In this document: positions 5,072 through 23,646 of the stretch, one piece after another
Layout: every line of letters starts with the position of its first letter
How positions within the stretch are numbered: the first letter of the stretch is position 1
Assembly (NCBI GenBank): GCA_019057795.1
Contig: JAHLWS010000041.1
Span: 1-49,125 of the forward strand
Direction: 5' to 3'
Source: Promethearchaeota archaeon
GTDB lineage: Archaea > Asgardarchaeota > Lokiarchaeia > Sigyniarchaeales > SOKP01
DNA length: 49,125 bases
Made by a program: the position numbers and the translations under genes
Notes under the pieces: generated by a model
The model's database searches: none
What the model was told of the DNA's origin: nothing
What the model saw: only the letters and a program-made list of their open reading frames with translations

Positions 5072-5959
5072 TCATATACTAATATTTAATTTTTTTGAAA
5101 GTTCTTTATATCTGGAGCGAAGTGTAACTTCAGTTACTCCTACTTGATCGGCAATTTCTTTCTGTGTTAATTCTAAGCCCTTTATCTTACTTGCTAAATA
5201 TATTGCCCCTGCTACTATTCCTTTTGGGTCTTTGCCGCTGGTAGAAAAATTAGAAGAAAAAGTATTTACAATTTTTGATGTAGTTCTCTCAATTTCTTGA
5301 TTCAAATTTAATTTAGCCATATATTTCGGAATTAAAGCGCTTGGTTCAGTATTTGGTGCCTTTAAATTTAATTCCCTGATTAAGACTCGATAACATCTTC
5401 TAATATCTTTCGAATTTTCGGACGATTCATCTAAGATCTCTTGGAAGGTTCGTGGTATTCTTTTTAATCTAATCGCAAGATATATGCTTGCAGCTATCAT
5501 TGAATTAATAGATCTTCCCCTAAGTAATTTCTTTTTAAACGCTTCTTTATACAAACGGATCGCTTCAACCTTCACATGATTAGGAAGGTCTAAATTACTG
5601 CAAATTCTTTTTAATTCCGTTGTTGCGATAAGAATATTCCTTTTTTCCCATGTCATTCGAGTATTCCATTTTACAGCTCTTTTTAAGTCTGGATCTTTGA
5701 TGTTCTTTTTGTTAATTACAGTCGTCAAGCCGATGTCTGGAAGTAGACTAGATATAGGGGCACCTGTATGTTCCCTTAATTGCTTTTCTTGGGAAGTATA
5801 AGCTCTTTTATCGCTATGAGATAAATCAACGCTTCTTTCGGCTACTACTAGTCCACACTGAGAACATACAGTTTCTCCTATTTGTCTAATTGAAACTATA
5901 CTACCTCCACATTCAGGGCATAAATCTGATATAATATTTAAGTCTGATACAACATTCAT
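5072..5959 (-). CDS. tfb: Transcription initiation factor IIB (TFB)
   Basis: Zn ribbon CPECGG..CSQCG and two cyclin repeats (LLRGRSI..AASIY; GKDPKGIVAGAIY..TQKEIA..GVTEVTLRSRYKEL); GGTGA SD 4 nt upstream of ATG. Confidence 0.96.
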   Translation of the reverse strand: MNVVSDLNIISDLCPECGGSIVSIRQIGETVCSQCGLVVAERSVDLSHSDKRAYTSQEKQLREHTGAPISSLLPDIGLTTVINKKNIKDPDLKRAVKWNTRMTWEKRNILIATTELKRICSNLDLPNHVKVEAIRLYKEAFKKKLLRGRSINSMIAASIYLAIRLKRIPRTFQEILDESSENSKDIRRCYRVLIRELNLKAPNTEPSALIPKYMAKLNLNQEIERTTSKIVNTFSSNFSTSGKDPKGIVAGAIYLASKIKGLELTQKEIADQVGVTEVTLRSRYKELSKKLNISI

Positions 5960-12533: not shown

Positions 12534-13376
12534 TTATTCAAACTTACATGTAATCTCGTTATCAATTTCAGGAACAATAATTTCAATGTTTGGATGGTTT
12601 ATTTCCATATAATTAAAAAATGGACTCAAATCTTCTGTTCGGCTGATTGGAGGGAAAAAATTGTCCCAATGAACTGGGATAACTATTTTAGGTTTAAGTA
12701 TGTTAACCATTTTTCCTCCTTTCTTGGCAATGTTTTTTTTGCTATTCCCTGCGAGAGGGGCGATAAATACATCGCAATTCTCATATTTCTTTAAAATATC
12801 TTCGTATTCATGCCACAAACTTCCAAATGCAACTATACTTCTTCCGTTATAATGAGTACAAAATCCAAATACATTTCCCATGGGGAATCCCTTTCCGTAT
12901 TTAGATATTTTCCCAATTTGTTTCCAGACTTTCCACGAAAATAACCTACTTGCGATAGTATTAAAATCGAATTTAATGTGTTCTGATTTTATCAACTCGA
13001 CCTCAACATTTTCTGAAACTTGGATTTTATCAAAATATTCGCAAGGTTTTATGTTATCCTTACCATTATTTGAAATTGGATAGGATTCGTCTTCAAGTAT
13101 TTTACCTTCAGCCCAATTAATCATATTTTCTTTAGCAACTTCAGAACAATAAACAGGAATATTTAGATTTTCTGCAAACCATCCTGCGTCAGTTACATGA
13201 TCAAAATGCCCATGTGAGATAAATATAGCCTCAATATTTGATAAATGTTCTTTTTTAGTCTTTAACTTTGGTGTTGCTTGGGAGTTACGATAAAAAAAAG
13301 GATCAAATAATAATCTTGTTCCATCTAAATCTAAAATATAGCTTGCAGTTCCAAACCAAGTAAATTTTATTGTCAT
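12534..13376 (-). CDS. MBL-fold metallo-hydrolase (UlaG-like)
   Basis: FTWFGTAS..LLFDPF, HGHFDH metal-binding motif, PVHWD. Confidence 0.9.
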   Translation of the reverse strand: MTIKFTWFGTASYILDLDGTRLLFDPFFYRNSQATPKLKTKKEHLSNIEAIFISHGHFDHVTDAGWFAENLNIPVYCSEVAKENMINWAEGKILEDESYPISNNGKDNIKPCEYFDKIQVSENVEVELIKSEHIKFDFNTIASRLFSWKVWKQIGKISKYGKGFPMGNVFGFCTHYNGRSIVAFGSLWHEYEDILKKYENCDVFIAPLAGNSKKNIAKKGGKMVNILKPKIVIPVHWDNFFPPISRTEDLSPFFNYMEINHPNIEIIVPEIDNEITCKFE

Positions 13377-13425
13377 TTTTTAAAACTTTTATAATGAATT
13401 TTGTTAATTCTTAATAAGATTAAAT

Positions 13426-13623
13426 TTACACATTCTTTAAACTATCTTTTATCTTTTTATAAATCTCTTTTAGCCCTGTATCTTCTATAAATTGCTTCAA
13501 CTTAGTTTTTGTTGGTGATACTTTTGGTGTTATTTCTTCAGTTCTACTTAATTCCGTTCCACAATACTCACAGATCTGCTGATTAGGATCAGAATATTCT
13601 TTATTACAATCTGGACATATCAT
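13426..13623 (-). CDS. Small Zn-ribbon protein
   Basis: MICPDC...ICEYCG; 65 aa. Confidence 0.75.
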   Translation of the reverse strand: MICPDCNKEYSDPNQQICEYCGTELSRTEEITPKVSPTKTKLKQFIEDTGLKEIYKKIKDSLKNV

Positions 13624-13851
13624 TTTAAAACTATCTCGAAATCTAGTATGTGTTTAGTTCTTATTATAGAACTATCTTAATAAAATAAAAATAATATTGT
13701 TTATAAAATCTATAATTTACTCTATTGTGCTTTAAAATTAGCAACCTTTTTAGTATAAATTTAATAATTGAAAATTCTCTTGGTTGTATTGAAACCAAAA
13801 ATCTTTATTAAGTAAATTATTGTATTGAGTAATTGTTTAATGAGGAATTAA

Positions 13852-15345
13852 ATGGGTATGACTAAAGATATATTGTATAATAAGCTAGCAAAAATTTGCG
13901 GTTCTAAAAATGTTTCTAATGATACGAAAGAATTAGAAAAATACTCTGAGGATATGAGTTTTGTTAGTGGCAAACGCCCCAATCTTATAGTTTGGCCTTC
14001 AAAAGCTCATCATGTAGAAGCGATTTTGAAATTAGCGAATAGTTTTAACTTTTCAGTTATTCCTGTAAGTTCTAGTTCTATATACAGACATCATGGAGAT
14101 ACTATCCCTAAAAAAAATAACAGCATAATACTAAACCTCTCTAAAATGAGTAGAATCCTTTCTATAAGTAGAAAAAATCGCGTAGTAATGGTTGAACCCG
14201 GAGTTACTTTCGAGGTCCTAATACCAAAACTTAAAAAAAAAGGCGTTAGGTTGCTTATCCCTTTACATCCCACATCTAATAAATCAGTGCTATCATCAGC
14301 GCTCGAAAGAGAACCAATAACAATACCACGATATCATTGGGACAGTTCTGATCCTCTGTTATGTACAGAAGTGATTTTCGGAACTGGAGATTTGTTTCGA
14401 ACTGGCACAGCTGCGGGGCCTGGAACGTTAAAGCAACAGAAAAGGTCAGGACAAAACCAAATTAACCCCATGGGACCAACCCAATTTAGTCCATTTAGAG
14501 TAATTCAAGGAGCCCAAGGGAGTATAGGTGTTGTAACTTGGGCTACAGTAAAACTCGAATTACTACCTTCTATTCAAAAGGTTTTCCATCTTCAATCTCA
14601 GAACCTTCAAGAGCTATTAGATTTTCAATTCGAATTGTTAAAAAATCGATTGTGTGACGAGTTGTTAATTTTAAATAACCTTAATTTAGCCTGTCTAATT
14701 AAAAGCACTGAACAAGACATATATGAACTCTCAAACTCGTTAAAGAAATGGAATTTAATATTTATAATAACTGGAAGAGGTATGCTAGCGAATGAAAAAA
14801 TCTCTTACCTTGAAGGAGATATTAACGAGATAAAAAATAAACTAGATCTTAGTAATTTAACGAGTGAAAATAATGTTGAAGATCAGGAAATTATTAGAGT
14901 CTTAAGTGAACCCGCTTTAAAGCCTTGGAAAATGAAGTTAAAAGGTAGTTATCAAGAAATTTTCTTTTTAACTAGTTTTGAGAGAATTTCAGAGTTTATT
15001 TCTTTAGTTGAAACTAAGATTTCTAAAAATTTAGGAATTTATATTCAACCTATAAATCAAGGTACTTCTTATCACTGTGAGTTTGATCTTTTTTATGACC
15101 CTCAAGATGGTATGGGAGTAAAACGTCTTAAAGAATTATTTATAGATACCAGTAAAGATTTAATAAGCTTAGGTGCTTTTTTCAATCGGCCATATGGTGA
15201 TTGGGCTGAAGATGTGTATAAAAGTCTCGACGACTCAATTATAATGGCTCTAAAAAAAGTAAAAAAGATTTTTGACCCAAATAATGTTCTAAATCCAGGA
15301 GTATTATGTTTTGATGATGATGAAAAAAACAATAGGAGTATATAA
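13852..15345 (+). CDS. FAD-binding oxidoreductase (VAO/PCMH - GlcD superfamily)
   Basis: FAD_binding_4-type N-terminus (LNLSKMSRIL..VEPGVT), GAQGSIGVVT, C-terminal KKIFDPNNVLNPG. Confidence 0.9.
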   Translation: MGMTKDILYNKLAKICGSKNVSNDTKELEKYSEDMSFVSGKRPNLIVWPSKAHHVEAILKLANSFNFSVIPVSSSSIYRHHGDTIPKKNNSIILNLSKMSRILSISRKNRVVMVEPGVTFEVLIPKLKKKGVRLLIPLHPTSNKSVLSSALEREPITIPRYHWDSSDPLLCTEVIFGTGDLFRTGTAAGPGTLKQQKRSGQNQINPMGPTQFSPFRVIQGAQGSIGVVTWATVKLELLPSIQKVFHLQSQNLQELLDFQFELLKNRLCDELLILNNLNLACLIKSTEQDIYELSNSLKKWNLIFIITGRGMLANEKISYLEGDINEIKNKLDLSNLTSENNVEDQEIIRVLSEPALKPWKMKLKGSYQEIFFLTSFERISEFISLVETKISKNLGIYIQPINQGTSYHCEFDLFYDPQDGMGVKRLKELFIDTSKDLISLGAFFNRPYGDWAEDVYKSLDDSIIMALKKVKKIFDPNNVLNPGVLCFDDDEKNNRSI

Positions 15346-15370
15346 ATAAAATCTTAATATATTTCTAATC

Positions 15371-18325
15371 TTATTTCAATTTTTCTTTTAGATGCCTATA
15401 CACTTTCTTTAAAGAGCCTAATTTTTTTAATTCATCTGCCCAGATTACTCTAAACCTATGTCTAAGCGTAGAGAGGTTGTAATCCTCATTATGTGCAATA
15501 TCTGAAATAGAATCATATTTTTTCATATAAGAAAATAATTTGGGTTTCCAAACATATTCCCTCACCGCTTCTGTATAATCAATTCCTAAAATATTTCTTA
15601 AGAATTGCCTTGCTTGAACTATTCCCATTTGTAATTTTTCGGCAATTTCTTGCATAGTGGATGTATTTCTAAGGAGAGTTTTTAAAAACGCATTGTCGAT
15701 ATCTCTTGCTGATGTAGATTTGATTAATAATTGATTAAGATAGTCATTATCTATTTTGTTATAACCAAATATACATCTTCTTAGAAATTTATGATATTCT
15801 GAATCTGTATAACCATATGCTCCCAATTTTCTTTTATATTCCTCATCCATTTCAGTGGAACTTTTGTTTTGAGTTATTAAGTTAATTAATAATTCATTGT
15901 CTATAAATGGATAAAAGAGATAAAACCTCTTCAGAAATTTATATAACTTCTCATTATTATGATTAAATTCATCATACTCTTTTCTCCAAATTCGACCTAA
16001 TTCCCGAAAATATGTAGTGACATGCATGTCCCTCAAAATATCAGATATTTTATAATCAGCCATAATAGCATTGATTATATGCGGTTTCCAATAAAATAAA
16101 TCTTTCGCAGACTGAAAATACATATGGGGTGTAAAATTAATATTCAGAATTTCTGTCATAAATTCACGCATCCATTTTACGCCTCTCTCATAAATTAAGG
16201 CAAGTTGTGCCATATTAAACCCTGCATAAATTAATGATTGTAAATGCAATATATCAATGTCAATCATAGCACATTCATTAATGTTCGATATTGTATTTTC
16301 TTCAAGTATTTTATTTATTTTCGGGTAGATTTTAAAAAGTCGTTGAGCTTCATAGAAATTTACTCCCCAATATTCATTTAAACGAGATAGTATTGTAGGT
16401 CTTGTCACGCCAAAATAACCTGCTATTTCTTCAATTGACCTACCCAATTTTATGAGTTTTATGATTTCCCCTTTATCAATTTGAATATAATCTTGATGAT
16501 CGCTCCCCCGTAATGTAGCAGATGCTTTTTTTCGAATCCATTTTTTTCTAAAGGTTTCCATTGCGCCTAATCTTATCCTCGCATCTGTAAGATTATTAAA
16601 ACCTATTTTTTGTAAATGTTTTGTAATTGTTGAAAATGAAGTCTCTAACTCTTCTTCTAGCTCACTTAAAAATAATCCATGTTCAATAAGATCTATGAGT
16701 TTGGGGATATCTAACTCAACACCTACAACTGACTTAGCGGCAGTTCCGAACCTATCGAGAAAAGCTTGGTTTCCTCCAAAATTTGCCCTTGCTTCTCGTA
16801 GGTTTTCTAATCCCAAGTGTTTCCAATAATATTCTACTTTACTAATCAATGTTGGGATTGAAATTTCAAATTCTCTAGCAATTTCCTCAGCAGAAAAACC
16901 TCTCTTTAATAAATTTTTAAGAGAATCTTGGTCTACATGAATGAAACTACCATGTTCCTCTCCAGTTATTGTAGGATAGCCGCCACCACCTCTAGAGATG
17001 TTATACCCATACAACGGTCTTCTTTTACCATCTTTTCCAATAAAATAATGGTCCAAAACACATGTTCTATACTTTTTAATGAAAGATATTTCAGACTTGT
17101 TCAAATCATCTAGGTCTTTACACTTCTTAATAACTTTTATAGTAAATTCCCCGCCTGTAGTCTGGAGAGTTGCATTGCCAATTTTGATAAAGGAAAGTTT
17201 TTTACCATACCTTCCGAAATTTTCTCTGAGATATTTATTGCCTGAGTAATTTATATGACTGTAGAACCTTTTCTTTAATTTTTGAATAGTTTGCCCGATG
17301 TAGAGCATTTTATATTTTAAAAAATTATCTTTATTATTATCTATCAAAATATAAATCACGCCATAATAAGCTCTCCAATTTTGTAATATAACTGATGTAT
17401 TTCTATTAGTCTCTTTGATAAATTTAACTTTTGAGCTACTATGGTTTATATCCTGTAAGAATTCCTCTTTTCTACTTCTTATTTTTAAATCATTGTCTTC
17501 TGGAACAAATTCATGGCATAAACCATTTTCTAAAAATATACGATAAGCTGCGAAAAGCTCATACGCAGAAATCTTTATTGGAACTTCTGAGGGAGATCTT
17601 CCCATTATTATCATATAAGTTCTTGCTTGTAGGATTTTATCGTATTCCGCTTTTTTCAGACTAATTGAATCTGAGTCAATAATTTGTTGGTTTTTTAAAT
17701 ACTTTTTATTTATAATTTTTAAGCACTCGTTTAACCGATCTTGAATTAACTTTTTAACTAATCGGGGAAAAGGTTTTATTTCTTCTTTATTACAAAGTCT
17801 TTCATTCATATCATATAGCTTCTTTAAGAATTCAATATACTCCATTTCAATTTTCTTAAATCCTAGTGTGATAAGTTTATCCCTCTTTTTTAAGAAGGAA
17901 TTGTCATCAATAGATTTTTTCTGTTTTTTATTTAATGAATTCTTATAGGCTTTTGATAAGGAATCCAAATAACCCGGCACTATCTTAGCCCCCCTCCCTA
18001 GGGAAGAACAATACATCCATTTATGAAAAACAGATAAAACATTCTTAGGGCTCTCTTCTTTAACCAATTCCATTAATTCTTTAGGAGGTGCTATTGAATT
18101 ATCAAACAAGCATGCGTTTACTGATTGAAGGAAATCTCCGATAAATTCATCTACAAAAACCAATGGAATTTTGTGTTCTCTGCATTTGGGATATTTGGAC
18201 ATTCCAAAAATTCCAAGTTTCAATGGTTTTAACCTTTCAAGCGTATTGCATCCAAATTTAGGACATACCGCAACTCGATCTCCTTTTAATCTTTTCCGAG
18301 TAGCTTGATTCTTCGTATCGATCAT
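15371..18325 (-). CDS. Large GIY-YIG endonuclease with Cys/His N-terminal domain and tandem HTH repeats
   Basis: GVIY..YIGQT..KRFYSH..SEISFI..GYN (about 16980-17370), followed by several HTH-like units (e.g. GFSAEEIAREFEISIPTL, GRSIEEIAGYFGVTRPTI); N-terminal CPKFGC..CREH. Confidence 0.8.
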   Translation of the reverse strand: MIDTKNQATRKRLKGDRVAVCPKFGCNTLERLKPLKLGIFGMSKYPKCREHKIPLVFVDEFIGDFLQSVNACLFDNSIAPPKELMELVKEESPKNVLSVFHKWMYCSSLGRGAKIVPGYLDSLSKAYKNSLNKKQKKSIDDNSFLKKRDKLITLGFKKIEMEYIEFLKKLYDMNERLCNKEEIKPFPRLVKKLIQDRLNECLKIINKKYLKNQQIIDSDSISLKKAEYDKILQARTYMIIMGRSPSEVPIKISAYELFAAYRIFLENGLCHEFVPEDNDLKIRSRKEEFLQDINHSSSKVKFIKETNRNTSVILQNWRAYYGVIYILIDNNKDNFLKYKMLYIGQTIQKLKKRFYSHINYSGNKYLRENFGRYGKKLSFIKIGNATLQTTGGEFTIKVIKKCKDLDDLNKSEISFIKKYRTCVLDHYFIGKDGKRRPLYGYNISRGGGGYPTITGEEHGSFIHVDQDSLKNLLKRGFSAEEIAREFEISIPTLISKVEYYWKHLGLENLREARANFGGNQAFLDRFGTAAKSVVGVELDIPKLIDLIEHGLFLSELEEELETSFSTITKHLQKIGFNNLTDARIRLGAMETFRKKWIRKKASATLRGSDHQDYIQIDKGEIIKLIKLGRSIEEIAGYFGVTRPTILSRLNEYWGVNFYEAQRLFKIYPKINKILEENTISNINECAMIDIDILHLQSLIYAGFNMAQLALIYERGVKWMREFMTEILNINFTPHMYFQSAKDLFYWKPHIINAIMADYKISDILRDMHVTTYFRELGRIWRKEYDEFNHNNEKLYKFLKRFYLFYPFIDNELLINLITQNKSSTEMDEEYKRKLGAYGYTDSEYHKFLRRCIFGYNKIDNDYLNQLLIKSTSARDIDNAFLKTLLRNTSTMQEIAEKLQMGIVQARQFLRNILGIDYTEAVREYVWKPKLFSYMKKYDSISDIAHNEDYNLSTLRHRFRVIWADELKKLGSLKKVYRHLKEKLK

Positions 18326-18948
18326 TCTCGAATCATCACTTTCTTTTTTTTATTTTTACTTTTATTCTGCTCATTTTTTTTTGTTAAAAGTAATTGGTCA
18401 TACTCCCGCTCCAGTTGTTGATAATTGAACTTAAGTTGCTGAAAAAAATCTGGTATAATTACATTTATCTTGTTTTCAACAATACAAAATTTTGTTAGCA
18501 TTTGTATTACCTGCTTTAATAATTGAGGTCTCATGTGAATTTCTAATCCTGAGAGAATATGAAATAATTCCCATAATCTTATTTTACTTTTTAAAAATCT
18601 ATTAAAGGCTCTTGCTTCTGGACTATTTGGAAAAGAAAGTGTTTTTTTTGCTAAAATTAAGACTTTCATCTTAATATTTTCCTTCGGTCCAATATATTTT
18701 TCCAAAAAACCAGTATATTCCAAGTAAAGCATGATTAGTTCTTTTTCCAATTTTTGAACTATGTGACTCTTTGAGATAACAGGATGATTCTCAAAATCCC
18801 TACATATTGCAAGTATAGTTGATTCCCTGTAATTTAGATAAGTTTTCAACTGACGAGAAAGTAAAGTTATTTTATTCTCAGTTTGATCAAGATTCTCATC
18901 ATAATAATTAAGATCATCATCATCATCATTATATATTAGCGAATTCAT
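18322..18948 (-). CDS. Hypothetical helical protein, translationally coupled to the GIY-YIG gene
   Basis: 208 aa; ATGA start/stop overlap at 18322-18325; acidic N-terminus and basic C-terminus. Confidence 0.75.
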   Translation of the reverse strand: MNSLIYNDDDDDLNYYDENLDQTENKITLLSRQLKTYLNYRESTILAICRDFENHPVISKSHIVQKLEKELIMLYLEYTGFLEKYIGPKENIKMKVLILAKKTLSFPNSPEARAFNRFLKSKIRLWELFHILSGLEIHMRPQLLKQVIQMLTKFCIVENKINVIIPDFFQQLKFNYQQLEREYDQLLLTKKNEQNKSKNKKKKVMIRE

Positions 18949-19264
18949 TTTATTGTCAATATTTTTTATTTTTATTTTTAGATTACAACTGCTAATCTAT
19001 TAAAATAGACATTTATATTTAAACAAAAAATGATTTGAAATTTGATGATTTATTATTATTGATCGTTAATGTTCAGTCTCTTTTCATTTAGGCGGATGTT
19101 TTAAGTTATTTTTTAACCAAATTAAATCAAAATCTGATTTTTACAAAAAAAATTGAAGTTGTATAATAAAAATGTTTTTGAAGTATGGTATGAAGATTTA
19201 GTATAGAAATTAAGAATAAATTAAGGTGATTTAAATCCCACTTAGTGAAGATGAGTATAATAAC

Positions 19265-20576
19265 ATGATTAAGCGGTGTCTACGGTGCTCGATAGATAAA
19301 AAGAATGTCTCTCTTATCCGTGAAATGCAAATGGATACCGCAACTCCAAATTAAAAGTCAGAAATACGCAACAGCCTGTCCTGCAATAGATATGTATAAT
19401 TTTCATCCTTATAGTGGAGGAGGCAAGATCATTTTGGCGCTAGCTTTAGAAACAGGCAGAATTAAATTCTCAGAAGAACTTCGAGATATAGTTTATAAAT
19501 GTACTGCATGCGGTTCTTGTGATGTATCATGTAAATTTTTAAACACTCTGGAACCGCTAGAAATAATAATGAAGCTTAGAGAGAAATTGGTGGATGCCGG
19601 ATATGGACCTATGCCAGAACAACAACAATATATTAAATCTGTTAAAATTAATAATAATCCATACAATGAATCTCATAGAAATAGATTAGATTGGTTGCCT
19701 AATGACCTTAAAATTGATTCGGAAGCAAAAATTTTGTATTATGTTGGATGTACTTCCTCTTATCGAAGAAGAGAAATGGCAGTTGCCGCCGCGCGCATAT
19801 TGAATGCTGCTAGCGTTCCATTTAACATACTAATTGATAAAGAGTTCTGTTGCGGGAGCCCAGTATTAAGGACTGGCGATACTAAAACATTCGAGGAATT
19901 ACTCAATAAAAACATCGATGTTATAGAATCTAAAGGAATTGAAACCGTTGTTTTTTCCTGTGCGGGATGTTATGACACATTCAAAGTAGATTATCCATTA
20001 TATAAGGCGTATAAATTTCGAGTGCTTCATACCGTAGAATTTTTTAATGAATTAATTGATAATGGTCAAATAAAATTAACACATGAAGTGCCATTAACCG
20101 TCACCTATCACGATCCTTGCCATTTAGGAAGAAATGCAGAACGATATGAAGAATGGGGGGGTGATGTTGTCGATTTAATGCCTTTAGTATCTATTAATGT
20201 CCCCCCTAAACCAAAAAGAACTGGATCAAAAGGGGTTTATGAACCACCTAGAAATATTTTAAAGAAAATCCCAGGATTAAAATTTGTTGAAATGGAAAGA
20301 ATACGAGAATATTCTTATTGCTGTGGAGCTGGGGCAGGAGTAAAATCAGCGTTTCCAGAATTTGCTCTTAAAACGGCAAGAACAAGAATTATAGAAGCTG
20401 AAGATTCTGGAGCAGACACTTTAACTTCTGCTTGTCCATTTTGTTCTACTAATTTGCAAGATGGAATTGAAGAATCTGGTTCAAGTTTAAAATTTTATGA
20501 TATTAATGAATTATTAATAATGGCTTTAGGATTAAAACCGAATGGATTAAAAGATAGAAAACTGGAGGTTGCTTAA
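19265..20576 (+). CDS. (Fe-S)-binding CCG-domain oxidoreductase (GlcF/HdrD-like), interrupted by a 31-nt insert
   Basis: Exon 1 MIKRCLRCS(I) plus exon 2 CKWIP..ACP gives CxxCxxC-x16-CP; second motif CTACGSCDVSC; CCG domains (YYVGC, EFCCG, YHDPCHLGR, CCGAGAG, ACPFC). Joined length 426 aa from ATG 19265; possible ATC start at 19235. Confidence 0.88.
19294..19324 (+). other. Candidate bulge-helix-bulge (BHB) intron in a protein-coding gene
   Basis: Bulges AUA (19292-94) and AAA (19323-25); central helix CUCG/CGUG (3 of 4 paired); inner stem GAUAA/UUAUC. Cutting after the 2nd nt of each bulge removes exactly 31 nt and restores the frame (TCG ATA TGC). Confidence 0.65.
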
Positions 20577-22166
20577 ATGGCCTTAAAAAAAGATATTCTT
20601 AATCAATTTGAAGCTATCGTTGGTTCAGACAATGTAAATGACGGTGAAGTAATAACAAATGTATATGCTTATAATTGGTGCATGGAAATTTTTAATTTTA
20701 TGAATGGAAAAGAGCCCTCTCCTTTTTCTGACACTCCTAAAGCCGTGATTCTTCCAGCTAATACTGAAGAAGTACAAAAGATTGTGAAATTATGTAATAA
20801 GTATAGTATAACATTTAAAGCTCAAAGTACCGGGTTGGGTCCATGGAATCAGCCATCTACCGATAATAGTATAATAGTTGATCTCCGAAGAATGAATAAT
20901 ATTATTAAGATCGACGAAAAAAATCTTTATGCTGTAATTGAACCTTATGTAAGTGGAGCTCAATTGCAAACAGAAATAATGAAATACGGTTTAAATTGTC
21001 ATATGCCTGGAGCAGGACCACAGGTATCCCCTCTTGCTAGCGCTACTTCTATGAATGGACCCGGATTTACATCCCCCTCCACAGGTCATAGTGCAAGAAA
21101 TGTTTTAGCGGTTGAATGGGTACTCCCAACGGGAGATATATTACGATTAGGATCTTTAGGCTTAAAAAAAAATCCTGATTGGTATAATGGGGATGGCCCA
21201 GGTCCTAGTTTAAGAGGAATTATGCGTGGATGGGCTGGAGCAAAATCAGGAATTGGTATATTTACCCAAGTGGCAATAAAATTATTTCCATACCCTTGTA
21301 GTACAAAATTTAATGTGACAGGAAATTCTCCCAACTATAATTTTGACATTCCAGATTTCATGAGACTTTATATCATAGACTGCGGAAGTTTTAAATATTT
21401 GGAAAAAGTCTTTTTACGAGTGGAAGAAGAAGAAATCTCGTTTATTTGTAGTCATTTATCTGGGTTCGCTACCATGGCAATTTTTGCAAATTCAATTGAT
21501 AATCTCATGGACAAATCATCAATTGGCATCATGAAAGTTCCAATAATTATTTTAATAGCTGCTCGAACTAAACGTGAATTTGATTATAAGCAAAAAGTCT
21601 TGAAAATGCTAATAGAAGAATTAAAATTAACTAACATAATTGGAACGAAATATATTCCCGAACCGATTTTTTACGCAGAAGCCTTACGTTCTAACTTAGG
21701 GCTTCACGGATTCATAACAACGGGAGGTTTTCAGAGTACCAAAGGAGGATGTGATACCGCAGCAATGTGTCTTCGAAGCACAAAGTCAAATATACGTTTA
21801 AAGAAGAAATACATAAAAAAGGGAGTAATTGCAAATGACTTTGGGGAAGGTACATGGATGAGTTCTTATGAATCAGGACATTTTTTCCATATGGAATCGC
21901 CTACAATGTTTGATCAAACAAATAAGAATAGTGTTGAAGGAATGGCAGAATATATGGAAAAAAGCAATGAATTAGATTTGCTCAAACACCTTGGTGCTCC
22001 ATTCTTCGTGGAAGGGGATAAAAACCATGATCTTTTTGGACCATATATGATGAATTATCATATTTGGTTAAGAAAGATTAAAGAAGAATTTGATCCGAAT
22101 AATATTGCTGATTCAGGATTTTACATATCTCCAAATAAAAACGAATTAGAAAAGCGAGGAAAATAA
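20577..22166 (+). CDS. FAD-binding oxidoreductase (VAO/PCMH - GlcD superfamily)
   Basis: P.NTEEVQKIVKLCN, VDLRRMNNI, VLAVEWVLPTGDILRLGS, KEEFDPNN; abuts the Fe-S gene stop. Confidence 0.9.
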   Translation: MALKKDILNQFEAIVGSDNVNDGEVITNVYAYNWCMEIFNFMNGKEPSPFSDTPKAVILPANTEEVQKIVKLCNKYSITFKAQSTGLGPWNQPSTDNSIIVDLRRMNNIIKIDEKNLYAVIEPYVSGAQLQTEIMKYGLNCHMPGAGPQVSPLASATSMNGPGFTSPSTGHSARNVLAVEWVLPTGDILRLGSLGLKKNPDWYNGDGPGPSLRGIMRGWAGAKSGIGIFTQVAIKLFPYPCSTKFNVTGNSPNYNFDIPDFMRLYIIDCGSFKYLEKVFLRVEEEEISFICSHLSGFATMAIFANSIDNLMDKSSIGIMKVPIIILIAARTKREFDYKQKVLKMLIEELKLTNIIGTKYIPEPIFYAEALRSNLGLHGFITTGGFQSTKGGCDTAAMCLRSTKSNIRLKKKYIKKGVIANDFGEGTWMSSYESGHFFHMESPTMFDQTNKNSVEGMAEYMEKSNELDLLKHLGAPFFVEGDKNHDLFGPYMMNYHIWLRKIKEEFDPNNIADSGFYISPNKNELEKRGK

Positions 22167-22169
22167 AAT

Positions 22170-22574
22170 ATGAACGCTATAAATTTGGAGGAGAAAAAAA
22201 TAAGAGGTTTTGCAGGAATTATAGCAAAATCACTAGCTCCTTTAAACGAGAATGAGAAATTTAAAAAGAAATTTAGTGGAACAAATCTCCAATTCCTATT
22301 AAATGCTGTTAATGTAAATTTTGCAGCATTAATTATTATTGATTATGGCAAATTAAGAGTCGAAAGTATACCAAATAAGCCGAAAGAAAGTTTAAAAAAG
22401 AAAATAATTGGTTGGGACGCTTATTTAGAGATGGATACTCAGACATTTTTAGCGATATCCATGAAACGAATTACGATAATAGGCTTAGGAAAAAAAATTT
22501 TAACGCGAAAGGTGAAAATAAAAGGTATCAGAAAATTAATTATTTTGTTAAAAGTATTCTCATTGTTGAATTAA
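22170..22574 (+). CDS. SCP2 sterol/lipid-binding domain-like protein
   Basis: C-terminal DAYLEMDTQTFLAI...ILTRKVKIKG matches the SCP2 pattern. Confidence 0.6.
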   Translation: MNAINLEEKKIRGFAGIIAKSLAPLNENEKFKKKFSGTNLQFLLNAVNVNFAALIIIDYGKLRVESIPNKPKESLKKKIIGWDAYLEMDTQTFLAISMKRITIIGLGKKILTRKVKIKGIRKLIILLKVFSLLN

Positions 22575-22665
22575 GATAATTAATAAAAATATTCAACATT
22601 ATAAACTAAAATAGAAATAAATTGAATTTTTAATTGAAAAATGAGTAAATAATAAGGTTTTAAAT

Positions 22666-23646
22666 ATGGGAAAAAAATCAAATCCAACAACATTTCAAGG
22701 TTCATTGAAAAAAAAATTTTATTTTGAAGGGTGGTATAATAAGTTAGTTGATAGTACAGCAGAGCATATTTATGCTATTATCCCTACAATTGCGCTGAAT
22801 AAAAAAGAAAAAACTTCACACGCATTTATACAATATTTAGACGGCATTAAAGCAACAGCTGAATATTTTAAATATCCCTTAGAAGAGTTTGAAAATCTTT
22901 CCAGCAAGAAATATGAGATTCGTATAGGAAAAAATTACTTCTCACTTGACAGAATTCATATTGAAATAGACCAACAAGGTCATATTATTAAAGGGGATCT
23001 CGAATATATAAATCCTATTTCGTGGCCTAAAAAATTTTTACAACCAGGAGTTATGGGTTGGTTTTCATATATGCCATTTATGGAAACTTATCATGGTATT
23101 GTTAGTATGAACCACAACATTAGGGGTACTTTAGAAATTAATGGAGCCTCCGTAAATTTTGATGGAGGTAAAGGGTATATGGAAAAGGATTGGGGAAAAT
23201 CCTTTCCTAGCGCATGGATATGGACGCAATCAAATCATTTTTCAAACCCAAACCTTTCTTTTATGTTCTCAATAGCGATAATACCCTTTTTGGGAATGCA
23301 ATTTAATGGTTTTCTTACCGCTCTCTGGCACGAGGGGAAATTTTACAAATTTGCAACTTATACTAGAGCAAAAGTTCGCTCAATAGAAATCGAAGTAGAT
23401 TCTATCCAAATTCAAATAGAAGATAAAAAGAATAGACTTGAATTTAAAATTTTCAAAAAAGGTAGTGATTTTGGTAATTTGAAAGCCCCTTCGTCAGGAG
23501 AAATGTTAGGTCATATTGCAGAGAGCATTAATTCTAAAATTGAATTAAAATTGTATAATAAAAAGGATAACCAATTAATTATTGACGATATAGGGGTAAA
23601 TGCGGGGTTAGAAATAAAGGATCCTGAGAAATTAGTTCCAAAATAG
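22666..23646 (+). CDS. Tocopherol cyclase-family protein
   Basis: YFEGWYNK, PGVMGWFSYMPFMETYHG, GYMEKDWGKSFPSAWIWTQSNHF. Confidence 0.88.
   Translation: MGKKSNPTTFQGSLKKKFYFEGWYNKLVDSTAEHIYAIIPTIALNKKEKTSHAFIQYLDGIKATAEYFKYPLEEFENLSSKKYEIRIGKNYFSLDRIHIEIDQQGHIIKGDLEYINPISWPKKFLQPGVMGWFSYMPFMETYHGIVSMNHNIRGTLEINGASVNFDGGKGYMEKDWGKSFPSAWIWTQSNHFSNPNLSFMFSIAIIPFLGMQFNGFLTALWHEGKFYKFATYTRAKVRSIEIEVDSIQIQIEDKKNRLEFKIFKKGSDFGNLKAPSSGEMLGHIAESINSKIELKLYNKKDNQLIIDDIGVNAGLEIKDPEKLVPK

What the first reader, a model, noticed from the sequence alone, without database searches (positions are those of the whole stretch)
19283..19330. Candidate bulge-helix-bulge intron inside an mRNA, splitting an Fe-S cysteine motif
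Seen: upstream of the called ORF 19305, another frame reads M-I-K-R-C-L-R-C-S, while the called frame continues C-K-W-I-P..C-P. The two halves of a ferredoxin-type CxxCxxC..CP motif are separated by 34 nt, where 3 are needed. The intervening RNA folds as outer stem (G85-C28, U86.G27, G87.U26), central helix CUCG/CGUG (one U.U mismatch), 3-nt bulges AUA (19292-94) and AAA (19323-25), and inner hairpin GAUAA..AGA-AUG-UCU..UUAUC. Established: archaeal splicing endonuclease EndA cuts after the 2nd nt of each bulge, and BHB introns are known in tRNA/rRNA and in crenarchaeal cbf5 mRNA. Applying that rule removes exactly 19294-19324 (31 nt) and gives TGC TCG ATA TGC = C-S-I-C in frame. Inference: this is an EndA/RtcB-spliced pre-mRNA intron in a metabolic gene of an Asgard-like archaeon. 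The unspliced RNA could only yield a protein lacking two cluster ligands, from an ATG in the intron loop, so splicing might act as a switch.
Basis: partly seen in the sequence, partly recalled or inferred. Interest (0 to 1): 0.92.

Follow-up and report, generated by a model that had tools for sequence, protein, structure and literature searches.

The report
tRNA-type mini-intron splits Asgard Fe-S gene
A 31-base insert that breaks an iron-sulfur enzyme gene of an Asgard archaeon has the shape that the archaeal tRNA-splicing enzymes cut, so the messenger RNA is very probably spliced; papers found here report that for only one other archaeal protein gene, and this copy seems to have come from another genus.

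Summary
Confirmed. Window 19294-19324 is a 31-nt insert between codons Ile and Cys of the CxxCxxC motif of a CCG/Fer4_8 Fe-S subunit gene. 98 intron-less orthologs read ...MIKRCLRCSICKWIPQ..., which is what excising it gives.

16 distinct insert alleles of 29 or 31 nt, in at least 5 unrelated sequence families and 4 genera of one Asgard family, sit at the same codon. Each folds as a bulge-helix-bulge motif, and the cut rule restores the frame in each. Shuffles, compensatory pairs, frozen exon bases and synonymous drift in exon 1 all support a spliced intron.

The genome has two EndA paralogs and RtcB. My own scan found a second split gene, NAD synthase.

No RNA data exist for this organism, so splicing is inferred. 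The window's allele is the weakest motif of the set.

New here: a 95%-identical sister genome lacks the intron. Window 15316-~19368 (GIY-YIG/HTH gene, 208-aa gene, exon 1, intron, 45 nt of exon 2) is about 90% identical to another genus, against about 70-75% for the flanking genes. This points to lateral, homing-like acquisition.

The scan has noted this intron on other DNA (e1-2073877, e1-5498518). I found no paper on Asgard mRNA introns of this type.

The parts
19265..19293 (+). Exon 1 of the CCG/Fer4_8 Fe-S subunit gene (M-I-K-R-C-L-R-C-S-I, last codon split AT|A). The open frame reaches back to 19235 (I-P-L-S-E-D-E-Y-N-N), so the true start is uncertain.
   Evidence: The same residues occur in 98 intron-less orthologs. 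Across intron-bearing alleles these codons differ almost only synonymously.
19294..19324 (+). 31-nt bulge-helix-bulge intron, excised if the cuts fall after the 2nd base of each bulge.
   Evidence: The intron-less sister locus L032 aligns on either side with exactly this gap. Contigs of relatives break at 19325.
19325..20576 (+). Exon 2: (A)TGC AAA TGG... = C-K-W-I-P-Q...CP, a second CxxCxxCxxxC motif and two CCG domains; stop codon included.
   Evidence: 94% amino-acid identity to intron-less P0001. dN/dS 0.21 against L032.
19285..19287 (+). Outer helix h, 5' strand (GUG). Pairs with 19326-19328 (UGC): one G-C and two G.U pairs.
   Evidence: Weak: relatives of this type have only the two G.U pairs.
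19288..19291 (+). Central 4-bp helix H, 5' strand (CUCG). Pairs with 19319-19322 (CGUG), with a U89.U21 mismatch.
   Evidence: Relatives have CGAG or CGGG on the 3' strand, giving 4 of 4 pairs.
19292..19294 (+). 5' bulge AUA; predicted cut between 19293 and 19294.
   Evidence: The cut rule was checked on this genome's own tRNA introns.
19295..19318 (+). Intron hairpin h': GAUAA/UUAUC stem with an apical AGA-AUG-UCU.
   Evidence: This hairpin is present in the minimum-energy fold.
19319..19322 (+). Central helix H, 3' strand (CGUG).
19323..19325 (+). 3' bulge AAA; predicted cut between 19324 and 19325.
19326..19328 (+). Outer helix h, 3' strand (UGC).
19275..19282 (+). Distal exon-exon helix GGUGUCUA. 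Pairs with UGGAUACC at 19332-19339 and holds the two exon ends together.
   Evidence: Present in the minimum-energy fold of the window, L001 and L007.
19332..19339 (+). 3' strand of the distal exon-exon helix (UGGAUACC).
15316..19368 (.). About 4.05-kb tract foreign to its flanks. It replaces 98 nt of the intron-less sister locus. It carries the 984-aa and 208-aa genes, the 5' spacer, exon 1, the intron and about 45 nt of exon 2.
   Evidence: blastn blocks against L032 end at 15315 and resume at 19326; about 90% identity to G179 inside the tract, about 69-75% outside; informative sites switch at 19368-19371.
15371..18325 (-). 984-aa protein: N-terminal Zn-ribbon-like domain, a GIY-YIG nuclease domain (about aa 322-421) and an array of weak HTH repeats. 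Candidate free-standing homing-type endonuclease.
   Evidence: PF01541 at E 5e-6, 27.2 bits against a cut-off of 22.6. HTH_7, HTH_23 and similar families; absent from G183, present in G179.
18322..18948 (-). 208-aa protein of no known family, co-oriented with and overlapping the 984-aa gene; part of the same cassette.
   Evidence: Paralogous cassettes lie elsewhere in the genome.
13852..15345 (+). Upstream FAD_binding_4 (VAO/GlcD-like) flavoprotein gene. Its last ~10 codons lie in the foreign tract.
   Evidence: 93.6% amino-acid identity to the L032 upstream gene as far as 15315.
20577..22166 (+). Downstream FAD_binding_4 flavoprotein gene, the operon partner of the Fe-S subunit.
   Evidence: dN/dS 0.06 against L032.

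Best explanation
Window 19294-19324 is a 31-nt archaeal bulge-helix-bulge (BHB) intron inside the coding sequence of a CCG-domain Fe-S subunit. The subunit is GlcF/HdrD-like and is encoded between two VAO-type flavoprotein genes.

Proposed mechanism (inferred, no RNA data):
- In the pre-mRNA, exon bases GUG-CUCG pair with CGUG...UGC around two 3-nt bulges, and the intron body forms a hairpin.
- The (alpha-beta)2 splicing endonuclease EndA cuts after the 2nd base of each bulge.
- RtcB joins the exons, giving TGC TCG ATA TGC.
- This restores the first [4Fe-4S] ligand motif C-x2-C-x2-C-x17-C-P and the reading frame.
- Without splicing only a 29-residue peptide could be made, or a protein lacking two cysteine ligands.

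Shown here:
- The insert, its geometry and its exact fit to orthologs.
- Conservation and covariation across alleles.
- The enzymes in the genome.
- Selection on both exons.

Also shown at the DNA level: this copy of the intron lies in a ~4-kb tract that is foreign to its flanks and related to another genus. The intron was therefore gained by lateral recombination rather than inherited.
For: 1. Ortholog fit: 98 of 121 close homologs read ...MIKRCLRCS[IV]CKWIPQ... without a break. Excision of 19294-19324 gives exactly that.

2. Same-site inserts: every ortholog truncated before the motif that I traced to DNA carries an insert at the same codon; two late-starting calls (P0080, P0089) proved intron-less. 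There are 16 distinct alleles. They fall into at least 5 unrelated intron sequences, with inner stems GAUAA.., AGAAUUUAGGG.., AUGAAUAGA.., AUGAGUAG.. and GCCAUUAGAG...

3. Cut rule and frame: lengths are 29 or 31 nt and the observed frame shift is +2 or +1 accordingly. In each allele a BHB with the correct cuts is present; in 14 it has 4 of 4 central pairs and a contiguous inner stem, the window has 3 of 4 pairs and L031 has a mismatch at the first inner pair. The BHB cuts give C-S-I-C-K-W. Two registers one base apart are used, and both give the same junction.

4. Shuffles rarely do this: 0-1.9% of trials.

5. Covariation: 93% of cells are paired, against 25-45% when the partner is slid. 4 pairs change on both sides. 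0 of 500 shuffles reach the observed score.

6. Folding: for type-2 alleles the canonical hBHBh' is the minimum-energy fold (L007, -24.8 kcal/mol).

7. Exon bases in the motif: they are frozen as TGC TCG ATA in all 8 alleles found through proteins. Only 5 of 59 intron-less alleles of the same family have these codons.

8. Exon 1: its codons drift synonymously (I: ATT/ATC/ATA; L: CTA/CTG/CTC; R: five codons). It is therefore translated in that frame.

9. Exon 2: no stop in 423 codons; dN/dS 0.21 against the sister genome.

10. Machinery: two EndA paralogs and one RtcB in the genome. Asgard EndA is the broad-specificity (alpha-beta)2 type (PMC5829648).

11. Controls and a second case: this genome's tRNA introns show the same motif and cut rule. 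My genome scan found a second split gene, NAD synthase, with Pfam profile positions 4-143 and 145-242 on either side of a 30-nt BHB insert.
Against: - No RNA evidence of any kind is available for this organism.
- The window's allele is the poorest BHB of the 16. It has a U.U mismatch in the central helix and an outer helix of one G-C plus two G.U pairs. The BHB conformer lies about 5 kcal/mol above the predicted minimum-energy fold.
- dN/dS of the gene (0.21) is higher than that of its operon neighbours (0.06 and 0.11). Some relaxation cannot be excluded.
- The intron lies only 29 nt downstream of the likely start codon, so a ribosome could reach it before it is cut.
- My genome-wide BHB scan was too noisy to show a clear excess of frame-restoring motifs: 35 against 21.5 at 29-31 nt.
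Confidence: 0.85

Rival explanations
1. The insert is a disabling insertion. Either the gene is a pseudogene, or only an N-terminally truncated Fe-S protein is made from the AUG at 19305.
For: - The called ORF from 19305 is open.
- The window's BHB is imperfect.
- dN/dS is somewhat higher than in the neighbouring genes.
Against: - Exon 1 upstream of the insert stays under purifying selection in its own frame in 16 alleles.
- Inserts persist at the same codon in 4 genera with the BHB kept.
- The intronic AUG is not conserved in frame.
- The two lost cysteines are invariant in 98 orthologs.
Confidence: 0.05
2. The ribosome skips the insert by translational bypassing (as in T4 gene 60) or by programmed frameshifting. 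No RNA is cut.
For: A hairpin and an in-frame stop shortly after the break are also features of bypass sites.
Against: - There are no matching take-off and landing codons: AUA against AAU or AUG.
- Bypass does not explain two 3-nt bulges exactly 4 bp apart.
- It does not explain the two registers that give one junction.
- It does not explain inserts of 29 and 31 nt both resolved by the BHB rule.
- The same motif splits NAD synthase and the tRNAs of this genome.
Confidence: 0.03
3. The insert is removed from RNA, but by another route than EndA/RtcB: a different nuclease and ligase, or self-cleavage.
For: The enzymes were not tested. The weak outer helix of this allele departs from the strict motif.
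Against: - The geometry is that of the EndA substrate in all alleles, and the cut rule of EndA gives the right frame.
- 29-31 nt is too small for group I or group II introns.
- Rfam finds no known RNA family in the window.
Confidence: 0.04
4. The mosaic around the intron (foreign tract 15316-19368) is an artefact of metagenome assembly joining two populations, not a real recombinant.
For: The genome is a MAG with 7.5% estimated contamination. I could not lay reads of the same organism on the window; only contigs of relatives matched.
Against: - An artefact needs two switches within 4 kb.
- The tract is only about 90% identical to any sampled donor.
- The right border is a fine mosaic of donor-like and sister-like sites over 45 nt. 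This looks like heteroduplex repair rather than a k-mer join.
- This rival concerns only the origin of the intron. Independent assemblies carry the same intron.
Confidence: 0.1

Closest known systems
BHB intron in the cbf5 (pseudouridine synthase) pre-mRNA of Crenarchaeota (Watanabe 2002; Yoshinari 2006; Yokobori 2009, PMC2738675)
   Same: - A short BHB intron inside a protein-coding sequence.
- Removal by the tRNA-splicing endonuclease in lineages with the hetero-oligomeric (alpha-beta)2 enzyme.
- Patchy gain and loss among relatives.
   Different: - Different gene: a metabolic Fe-S subunit, not an RNA-modification enzyme.
- Different phylum: Asgard, not Thermoproteota.
- No homology between the introns.
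- Here splicing is inferred, not shown by RT-PCR.
- Here the intron-bearing segment is seen to have moved between genera.
Archaeal tRNA and rRNA BHB introns (EndA substrates)
   Same: The same hBHBh' geometry and cut rule. This genome's own tRNA-Thr, tRNA-Ala and tRNA-Ser introns show it. Asgard tRNA genes are heavily interrupted (bioRxiv 10.64898/2026.10.13.758758).
   Different: - The host is an mRNA.
- Excision must keep a reading frame.
[quoted passage not shown]
Unconventional cytoplasmic splicing of HAC1/XBP1 mRNA in eukaryotes (IRE1 cut, tRNA ligase/RtcB joining; from general knowledge and PMC8718801)
   Same: Non-spliceosomal removal of a small, frame-shifting intron from an mRNA, with a tRNA ligase of the RtcB type joining the exons.
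   Different: - The endonuclease is IRE1, which recognises twin stem-loops, not a BHB.
- That splicing is a regulated stress switch. No regulation is indicated here.
Collaborative homing: ORF-less intron plus neighbouring free-standing homing endonuclease (cyanophage S-PM2 psbA intron with F-CphI, PMC6083498; T4 mobE/I-TevIII, PMC2790892)
   Same: - A nuclease gene (GIY-YIG) lies beside an ORF-less intron.
- Close relatives differ by presence or absence of both.
- The co-converted tract ends about 45 nt past the intron.
   Different: - Those introns are self-splicing group I introns of phages.
- Here the intron is a 31-nt BHB intron of an archaeal chromosome.
- No cleavage activity or target is known.
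- The intron also occurs without the nuclease gene (G183 and all type-2 loci).
Mobile archaeal rRNA BHB introns encoding LAGLIDADG homing endonucleases (e.g. I-DmoI; from general knowledge, not checked here)
   Same: BHB introns that spread at the DNA level by endonuclease-driven gene conversion.
   Different: - Those introns are hundreds of bases long and encode their own enzyme.
- They sit in rRNA genes.
- This one is 31 nt and has no ORF.

Membership tests
Archaeal BHB intron (EndA/RtcB substrate) | [quoted passage not shown] | tested here: met
   The window has AUA and AAA around CUCG/CGUG (3 of 4 pairs, U.U mismatch). The 15 other alleles have 4 of 4 pairs.
Archaeal BHB intron (EndA/RtcB substrate) | Flanking helices h (exon-exon) and h' (intron). 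| tested here: met
   - h' is 5 bp plus an apical stem.
- h is 3 bp (one G-C, two G.U) and weak.
- An 8-bp exon-exon helix lies further out.
- Type-2 alleles have 3-4 Watson-Crick pairs in h.
Archaeal BHB intron (EndA/RtcB substrate) | Cuts after the 2nd base of each bulge give a functional joined product. | tested here: met
   The joined sequence equals that of the intron-less orthologs in all 16 alleles, for 29-nt and 31-nt introns and in both registers. The rule agrees with the tRNA-Thr 37/38 intron of this genome.
Archaeal BHB intron (EndA/RtcB substrate) | The structure, not the sequence, is conserved (covariation). | tested here: met
   4 pairs with changes on both sides; 93% of cells paired against 25-45% when slid. 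Unrelated inner stems occur in at least 5 intron families.
Archaeal BHB intron (EndA/RtcB substrate) | The host encodes the splicing endonuclease and the RtcB ligase. | tested here: met
   two PF01974 ORFs of about 200 aa (97.7 and 70.5 bits) and one PF01139 ORF (561 bits).
Archaeal BHB intron (EndA/RtcB substrate) | Spliced junction or excised (circular) intron seen in RNA. | not testable with these tools
   No RNA run is listed for this sequence. The contigs laid on it were from relatives only.
cbf5 pre-mRNA intron family | The intron sits in the cbf5 gene at the homologous site. | tested here: not met
   The host gene has CCG and Fer4_8 domains. It shares the mechanism with the cbf5 case but is not a member of that intron family.
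Endonuclease-mobilised intron (collaborative homing) | A nuclease gene of a homing-endonuclease family lies next to the intron. | tested here: met
   GIY-YIG PF01541 above its cut-off in the 984-aa ORF; multiple HTH modules.
Endonuclease-mobilised intron (collaborative homing) | Intron-plus and intron-minus alleles in close relatives, with a co-conversion tract around the insertion site. | tested here: met
   Sister locus L032 (95% identical flanks) lacks the intron and the cassette. The donor-like tract is 15316-~19368.
Endonuclease-mobilised intron (collaborative homing) | The nuclease gene and the intron travel together in several lineages. | tested here: inconclusive
   They are together in the window and in G179. 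The intron occurs without the cassette in G183, probably G245, and all type-2 loci.
Endonuclease-mobilised intron (collaborative homing) | The nuclease cuts the intron-less allele near the insertion site, and the intron destroys that site. | not testable with these tools
   This needs the purified protein and both alleles.

The most novel reading that the evidence does not exclude
The 29-31-nt BHB mini-introns of Asgard protein genes are mobile at the DNA level. This copy entered an intron-less gene by a homing-like gene conversion. That event was driven by, or at least co-transferred with, the free-standing GIY-YIG multi-HTH endonuclease gene inserted beside it. This would be the first 'collaborative homing' pair built on a tRNA-type intron and an archaeal chromosome. 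The frozen TGCTCGATA|TG exon bases would then be both the splicing motif and the homing site.
Probability: 0.25. Interest if true: 0.9.

Novelty: new member of a known kind. Interest (0 to 1): 0.8.

Why it matters
In the papers I could search, endonuclease-type splicing inside an archaeal coding sequence is reported for one gene only (cbf5), and only in Crenarchaeota.

This case would extend it in several ways:
- It is an ordinary metabolic gene of an Asgard archaeon, the closest prokaryotic kin of eukaryotes, and it can be read only after such splicing.
- The same genome holds at least one more case (NAD synthase).
- Gene callers silently truncate such genes. Here they drop two Fe-S ligands, so annotations and metabolic reconstructions of Asgard genomes are affected.

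The comparison of an intron-bearing genome, an intron-less sister and a donor-like relative gives a rare, datable view of how such an intron enters a gene. It also makes the question of BHB-intron mobility directly testable.

Tried and rejected
- RNA evidence: no RNA holder is listed for window 18900-21500. The four runs laid (kind unknown, contigs only) held relatives less than 90% alike. Their alignments break at 19325, with exon 1 joined directly. These are intron-less relatives, not transcripts of this organism.
- Spliced junction search: a search of metagenome contigs for the spliced type-W junction found nothing.
- Genome-wide BHB scan of G000: 4.1 million lenient motifs. ORF-restoration filters were swamped by neighbouring-gene junctions, and true and shifted cut rules gave equal counts. 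Only a small excess appeared at 29-31 nt, 35 against 21.5. The scan was useful only for picking out NAD synthase by eye. One run hit the time limit.
- ARAGORN intron boundaries are imprecise, so only a few tRNAs serve as clean controls.
- P0080 and P0089 looked truncated but are intron-less genes with non-ATG starts.
- The wide metagenome scan for the unspliced pattern returned mostly chance matches: 4 true loci among the 80 stored.
- Rfam: no family in the window. ARAGORN: no tRNA in the window.
- dN/dS for the 326-aa gene was meaningless because of an indel.
- Considered and rejected: translational bypass, pseudogene, group I/II intron and assembly artefact of the insert itself (see rivals).
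Full report
**The observation**

- ATG 19265 opens a frame reading MIKRCLRCSIDKK..., which stops at 19352.
- The called ORF 19305-20576 (423 aa) reads MSLLSVKCKWIPQ...ACP in the +1 frame.
- Its product has two CCG domains. It has only the rear part of a Fer4_8 domain: from profile position 13, at 25.2 bits against a cut-off of 27.
- The next gene (20577-22166) is a FAD_binding_4 flavoprotein.
- Between TCG (19289-91) and TGC (19326-28) lie 34 nt where one codon is expected.

**Orthologs**

A search with the called ORF found thousands of homologs. The best 120 are 71-94% identical. Those that carry names come from Promethearchaeota, Hodarchaeota, Hermodarchaeota and Thorarchaeota MAGs.
- 98 of the 121 sequences (hits plus the window) read ...MIKRCLRCS[IV]CKWIPQ[LV]QIKSQKYATACP... 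without a break.
- Removing 19294-19324 gives MIKRCLRCSICKWIPQLQIKSQKYATACP, which is that same sequence.
- In the intact ortholog P0001 the Fer4_8 match starts at profile position 2 and passes the cut-off.

**The same site is interrupted in many genomes**

The other 22 hits have odd or short N-termini. I fetched the DNA for ten such hits. Eight carry an insert at the same codon, upstream of which another frame reads ...MIK[RQ]CLRCSI. The other two, P0080 and P0089, are intron-less genes whose start was called late.

A pattern scan of 400 genomes of the phylum found the interrupted form in 9.
- All 9 are in the window's family, in 4 genera.
- The reversed control found none.
- One genome (G175) has two tandem paralogs, each interrupted.

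A metagenome scan added two more alleles. In all there are 16 distinct alleles, in at least five unrelated intron sequences.

**Fit to the BHB motif**

My parser asks for helix, 4-bp helix, 3-nt bulge and helix on each strand, with the cut after the 2nd bulge base. It finds such a motif with the correct cuts in every allele.

| | Type W (window; L001/G179; G183; G226; G245; G150; L080) | Type 2 (L003, L006, L007, L009, L011, L012, L020, L021, L027, L031, L091, L120) |
|---|---|---|
| Central helix | CUCG/CG[AGU]G | UCGA/UCG[AG] |
| 5' bulge | AUA | UAA |
| 3' bulge | AAA or UAA | AAU, AUU, UGU or AGU |
| Outer helix | weak | UGC/GCA or UGC/GUA |

- The two registers are one base apart, yet both give the junction UGC UCG AUA UG[CU] AAR.
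- Introns are 31 or 29 nt. The frame offset seen between the two ORFs is +1 or +2 accordingly.
- For type 2 the canonical motif is simply the minimum-energy fold (L007, -24.8 kcal/mol).

**Is it more than chance?**

- Shuffles: shuffling the insert yields a frame-restoring BHB in 0.5-1.9% of trials with 3 or more central pairs, and in 0-0.3% with 4. This held in each of the 13 alleles that pass the parser's inner-stem threshold, and those alleles belong to several unrelated families.
- Covariation: on nine type-2 alleles 93% of cells are paired, against 25-45% when partners are slid. Four pairs change on both sides. No shuffle of 500 reaches the observed score.
- Frozen exon bases: the exon codons that build the motif are TGC TCG ATA in all eight alleles found through proteins, that is, without a DNA pattern. 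In 59 intron-less alleles of the same family they vary freely (Ser TCT/TCA/TCG/TCC/AGC; Ile/Val ATA/ATT/ATC/GTA/GTC), and only 5 have that combination.
- Exon 1 under selection: its codons drift almost only synonymously among intron-bearing alleles, so that frame is translated.
- Exon 2 under selection: it is open over 423 codons, with dN/dS 0.21 against the sister genome.

**Machinery and controls**

- The window's genome is 4.95 Mb in 87 contigs, estimated 100% complete with 7.5% contamination.
- It has two EndA-domain ORFs of about 200 aa and one RtcB.
- This fits the (alpha-beta)2 enzyme with the L1 loop, described for Asgard and TACK archaea and linked to broad substrate range (PMC5829648).
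- Its tRNA-Thr, tRNA-Ala and tRNA-Ser introns show the same motif. Where ARAGORN places the intron at 37/38, my cut rule agrees.
- My genome-wide scan was noisy, but it turned up a second case. A 30-nt BHB insert (C69:3647-3676, minus strand) lies in the GYFTKYGD|SGVD motif of NAD synthase. Pfam profile positions 4-143 lie on one side and 145-242 on the other.

**Distribution**

- In the window's family, 59 of 135 genomes have the uninterrupted motif and 9 the interrupted one. The second count is a lower bound, because the pattern fixes the exon bases.
- On a protein tree the interrupted state needs at least 5-6 changes.
- One clade of 17 sequences is uniformly interrupted, which suggests vertical inheritance.
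- Elsewhere single interrupted genes sit among intact ones.
- The window's gene is sister (support 100) to the intact P0001, at 94% identity.

**Origin of this copy**

The P0001 locus (L032) matches the window in two blocks:
- L032:1-2471 = window 12854-15315 (93.9% identity).
- L032:2570-6819 = window 19326-23574 (95.3% identity).

The 98 nt between these blocks in L032 are replaced in the window by 15316-19325. The replacement holds:
- the last codons of the upstream flavoprotein gene;
- a 984-aa gene and a 208-aa gene on the other strand;
- the 5' spacer, exon 1 and the intron.

Against G179, a genome of another genus, identity is about 69% in the upstream flavoprotein gene and about 75% in the Fe-S gene body. 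It is about 90% across 15400-19300. Three-way informative sites are donor-like up to 19367 and sister-like from 19371, with a small mixed patch between.

So a tract of about 4.05 kb, ending about 45 nt beyond the intron, is foreign to its flanks.

Within the other genus, G183 has the same intron without the two extra genes. G179 equals G183 plus a 3.86-kb insertion in the spacer. The likely order of events is therefore:
1. The intron was present first.
2. The cassette was then inserted beside it.
3. Both then passed together into the window's lineage.

The 984-aa protein has a GIY-YIG nuclease domain (E 5e-6, above the cut-off) followed by many weak HTH modules. That is the build of a site-specific endonuclease.

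This fits a homing-like event, but other points weigh against a firm link:
- The intron also occurs without the cassette.
- The cassette family has five other copies in the genome, none with an evident link to introns.
- A chimeric MAG contig is not excluded.

**What is not shown**

- There is no RNA for this organism.
- The window's allele is the weakest BHB of the set. It has a U.U mismatch in the central helix and a G.U-rich 3-bp outer helix, and the BHB conformer lies 5 kcal/mol above the minimum-energy fold. It may be cut less well.
- The start of exon 1 is unclear. Type-W alleles lack the ATG used by orthologs, which leaves ATG 19265 or a near-cognate ATC 19235 behind an AGGTGA.
- The 'switch' idea finds no support, because the in-frame intronic AUG is not conserved.

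**Comparison with what is known**

- The closest case is the cbf5 pre-mRNA intron of Crenarchaeota (PMC2738675). It shares the mechanism but differs in gene and phylum.
- Full-text searches found no report of BHB introns in Asgard mRNAs. A 2026 preprint treats Asgard tRNA introns only.
- Earlier notes of this scan describe the same intron in other genomes and many other candidate mRNA introns in Asgard genomes. I treat these as leads, not as evidence.

**Verdict**

The interpretation as an EndA/RtcB-type mRNA intron is strongly supported by comparison (0.85), but RNA proof is lacking. The finding is a new member of a known kind. Interest is high because of the lineage, the effect on annotation, and the visible lateral gain of the intron.

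Noticed in passing
G000 contig C69:3647-3676, minus strand (locus L028:648-677): A second BHB-split protein gene in the same genome. A 30-nt insert (TAT|GGTG[ATT]TAGG..CCTA|CACT[AGA]GTG) lies in the GYFTKYGD|SGVD motif of NAD synthase. Pfam profile positions 4-143 lie upstream and 145-242 downstream.
   Followed up: partly
window 15371-18948; G000 C78:122307-124198, 154252-155999, 171502-173579, 187545-190000; C54:8556-10498: The pair 'about 205-aa protein plus large protein with an N-terminal Zn-ribbon-like domain' is a repeated two-gene cassette, with six copies in this genome. The first ~277 aa of the large protein are 38-42% identical between copies; one further copy aligns to aa 400 at 31%. 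The C-terminal parts differ. The full GIY-YIG and HTH array was seen in the window copy only.
   Followed up: partly
window 19220-19267: Type-W alleles have lost the ATG that starts the orthologs: L-S-E-D-E-Y-N-N stands in place of M-D-E-E-E-Y-Q-K. An AGGTGA (19224-29) sits 5 nt before an in-frame ATC (19235). The first in-frame ATG (19265) is only 29 nt before the 5' splice site.
   Followed up: no
L021 and L027 (G175 contig C194:2461-2510 and 5548-5595): One genome has two tandem paralogs of the Fe-S gene. Each has its own intron at the same codon, one of 31 nt and one of 29 nt.
   Followed up: no
G226 contigs C243:60-109 and C205:4549-4575: The same genome bin holds both an interrupted and an uninterrupted copy of the motif. 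These may be paralogs or two strains in one bin.
   Followed up: no
G185, G192, G195, G224, G225: Five intron-less alleles carry exactly TGCTCGATATG, the exon sequence of the intron-bearing alleles. They could be sites of precise intron loss or ready-made insertion sites.
   Followed up: no
whole genome G000: ARAGORN finds only 29 tRNA genes in a genome rated 100% complete. 16 of them have called introns, some at odd positions. This fits heavily interrupted Asgard tRNA genes that standard finders miss.
   Followed up: no
window 15316-15345: The last ~10 codons of the upstream FAD_binding_4 gene lie inside the foreign tract, so that protein's C-terminal tail differs from the sister genome's.
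   Followed up: no
window 22170-23646; L032:5414-6820: The operon continues with a 134-aa gene and a 326-aa gene. In the sister locus the 326-aa gene matches Tocopherol_cycl (PF14249). The substrate of the flavoprotein/Fe-S enzyme may therefore be a lipid or prenyl compound.
   Followed up: no
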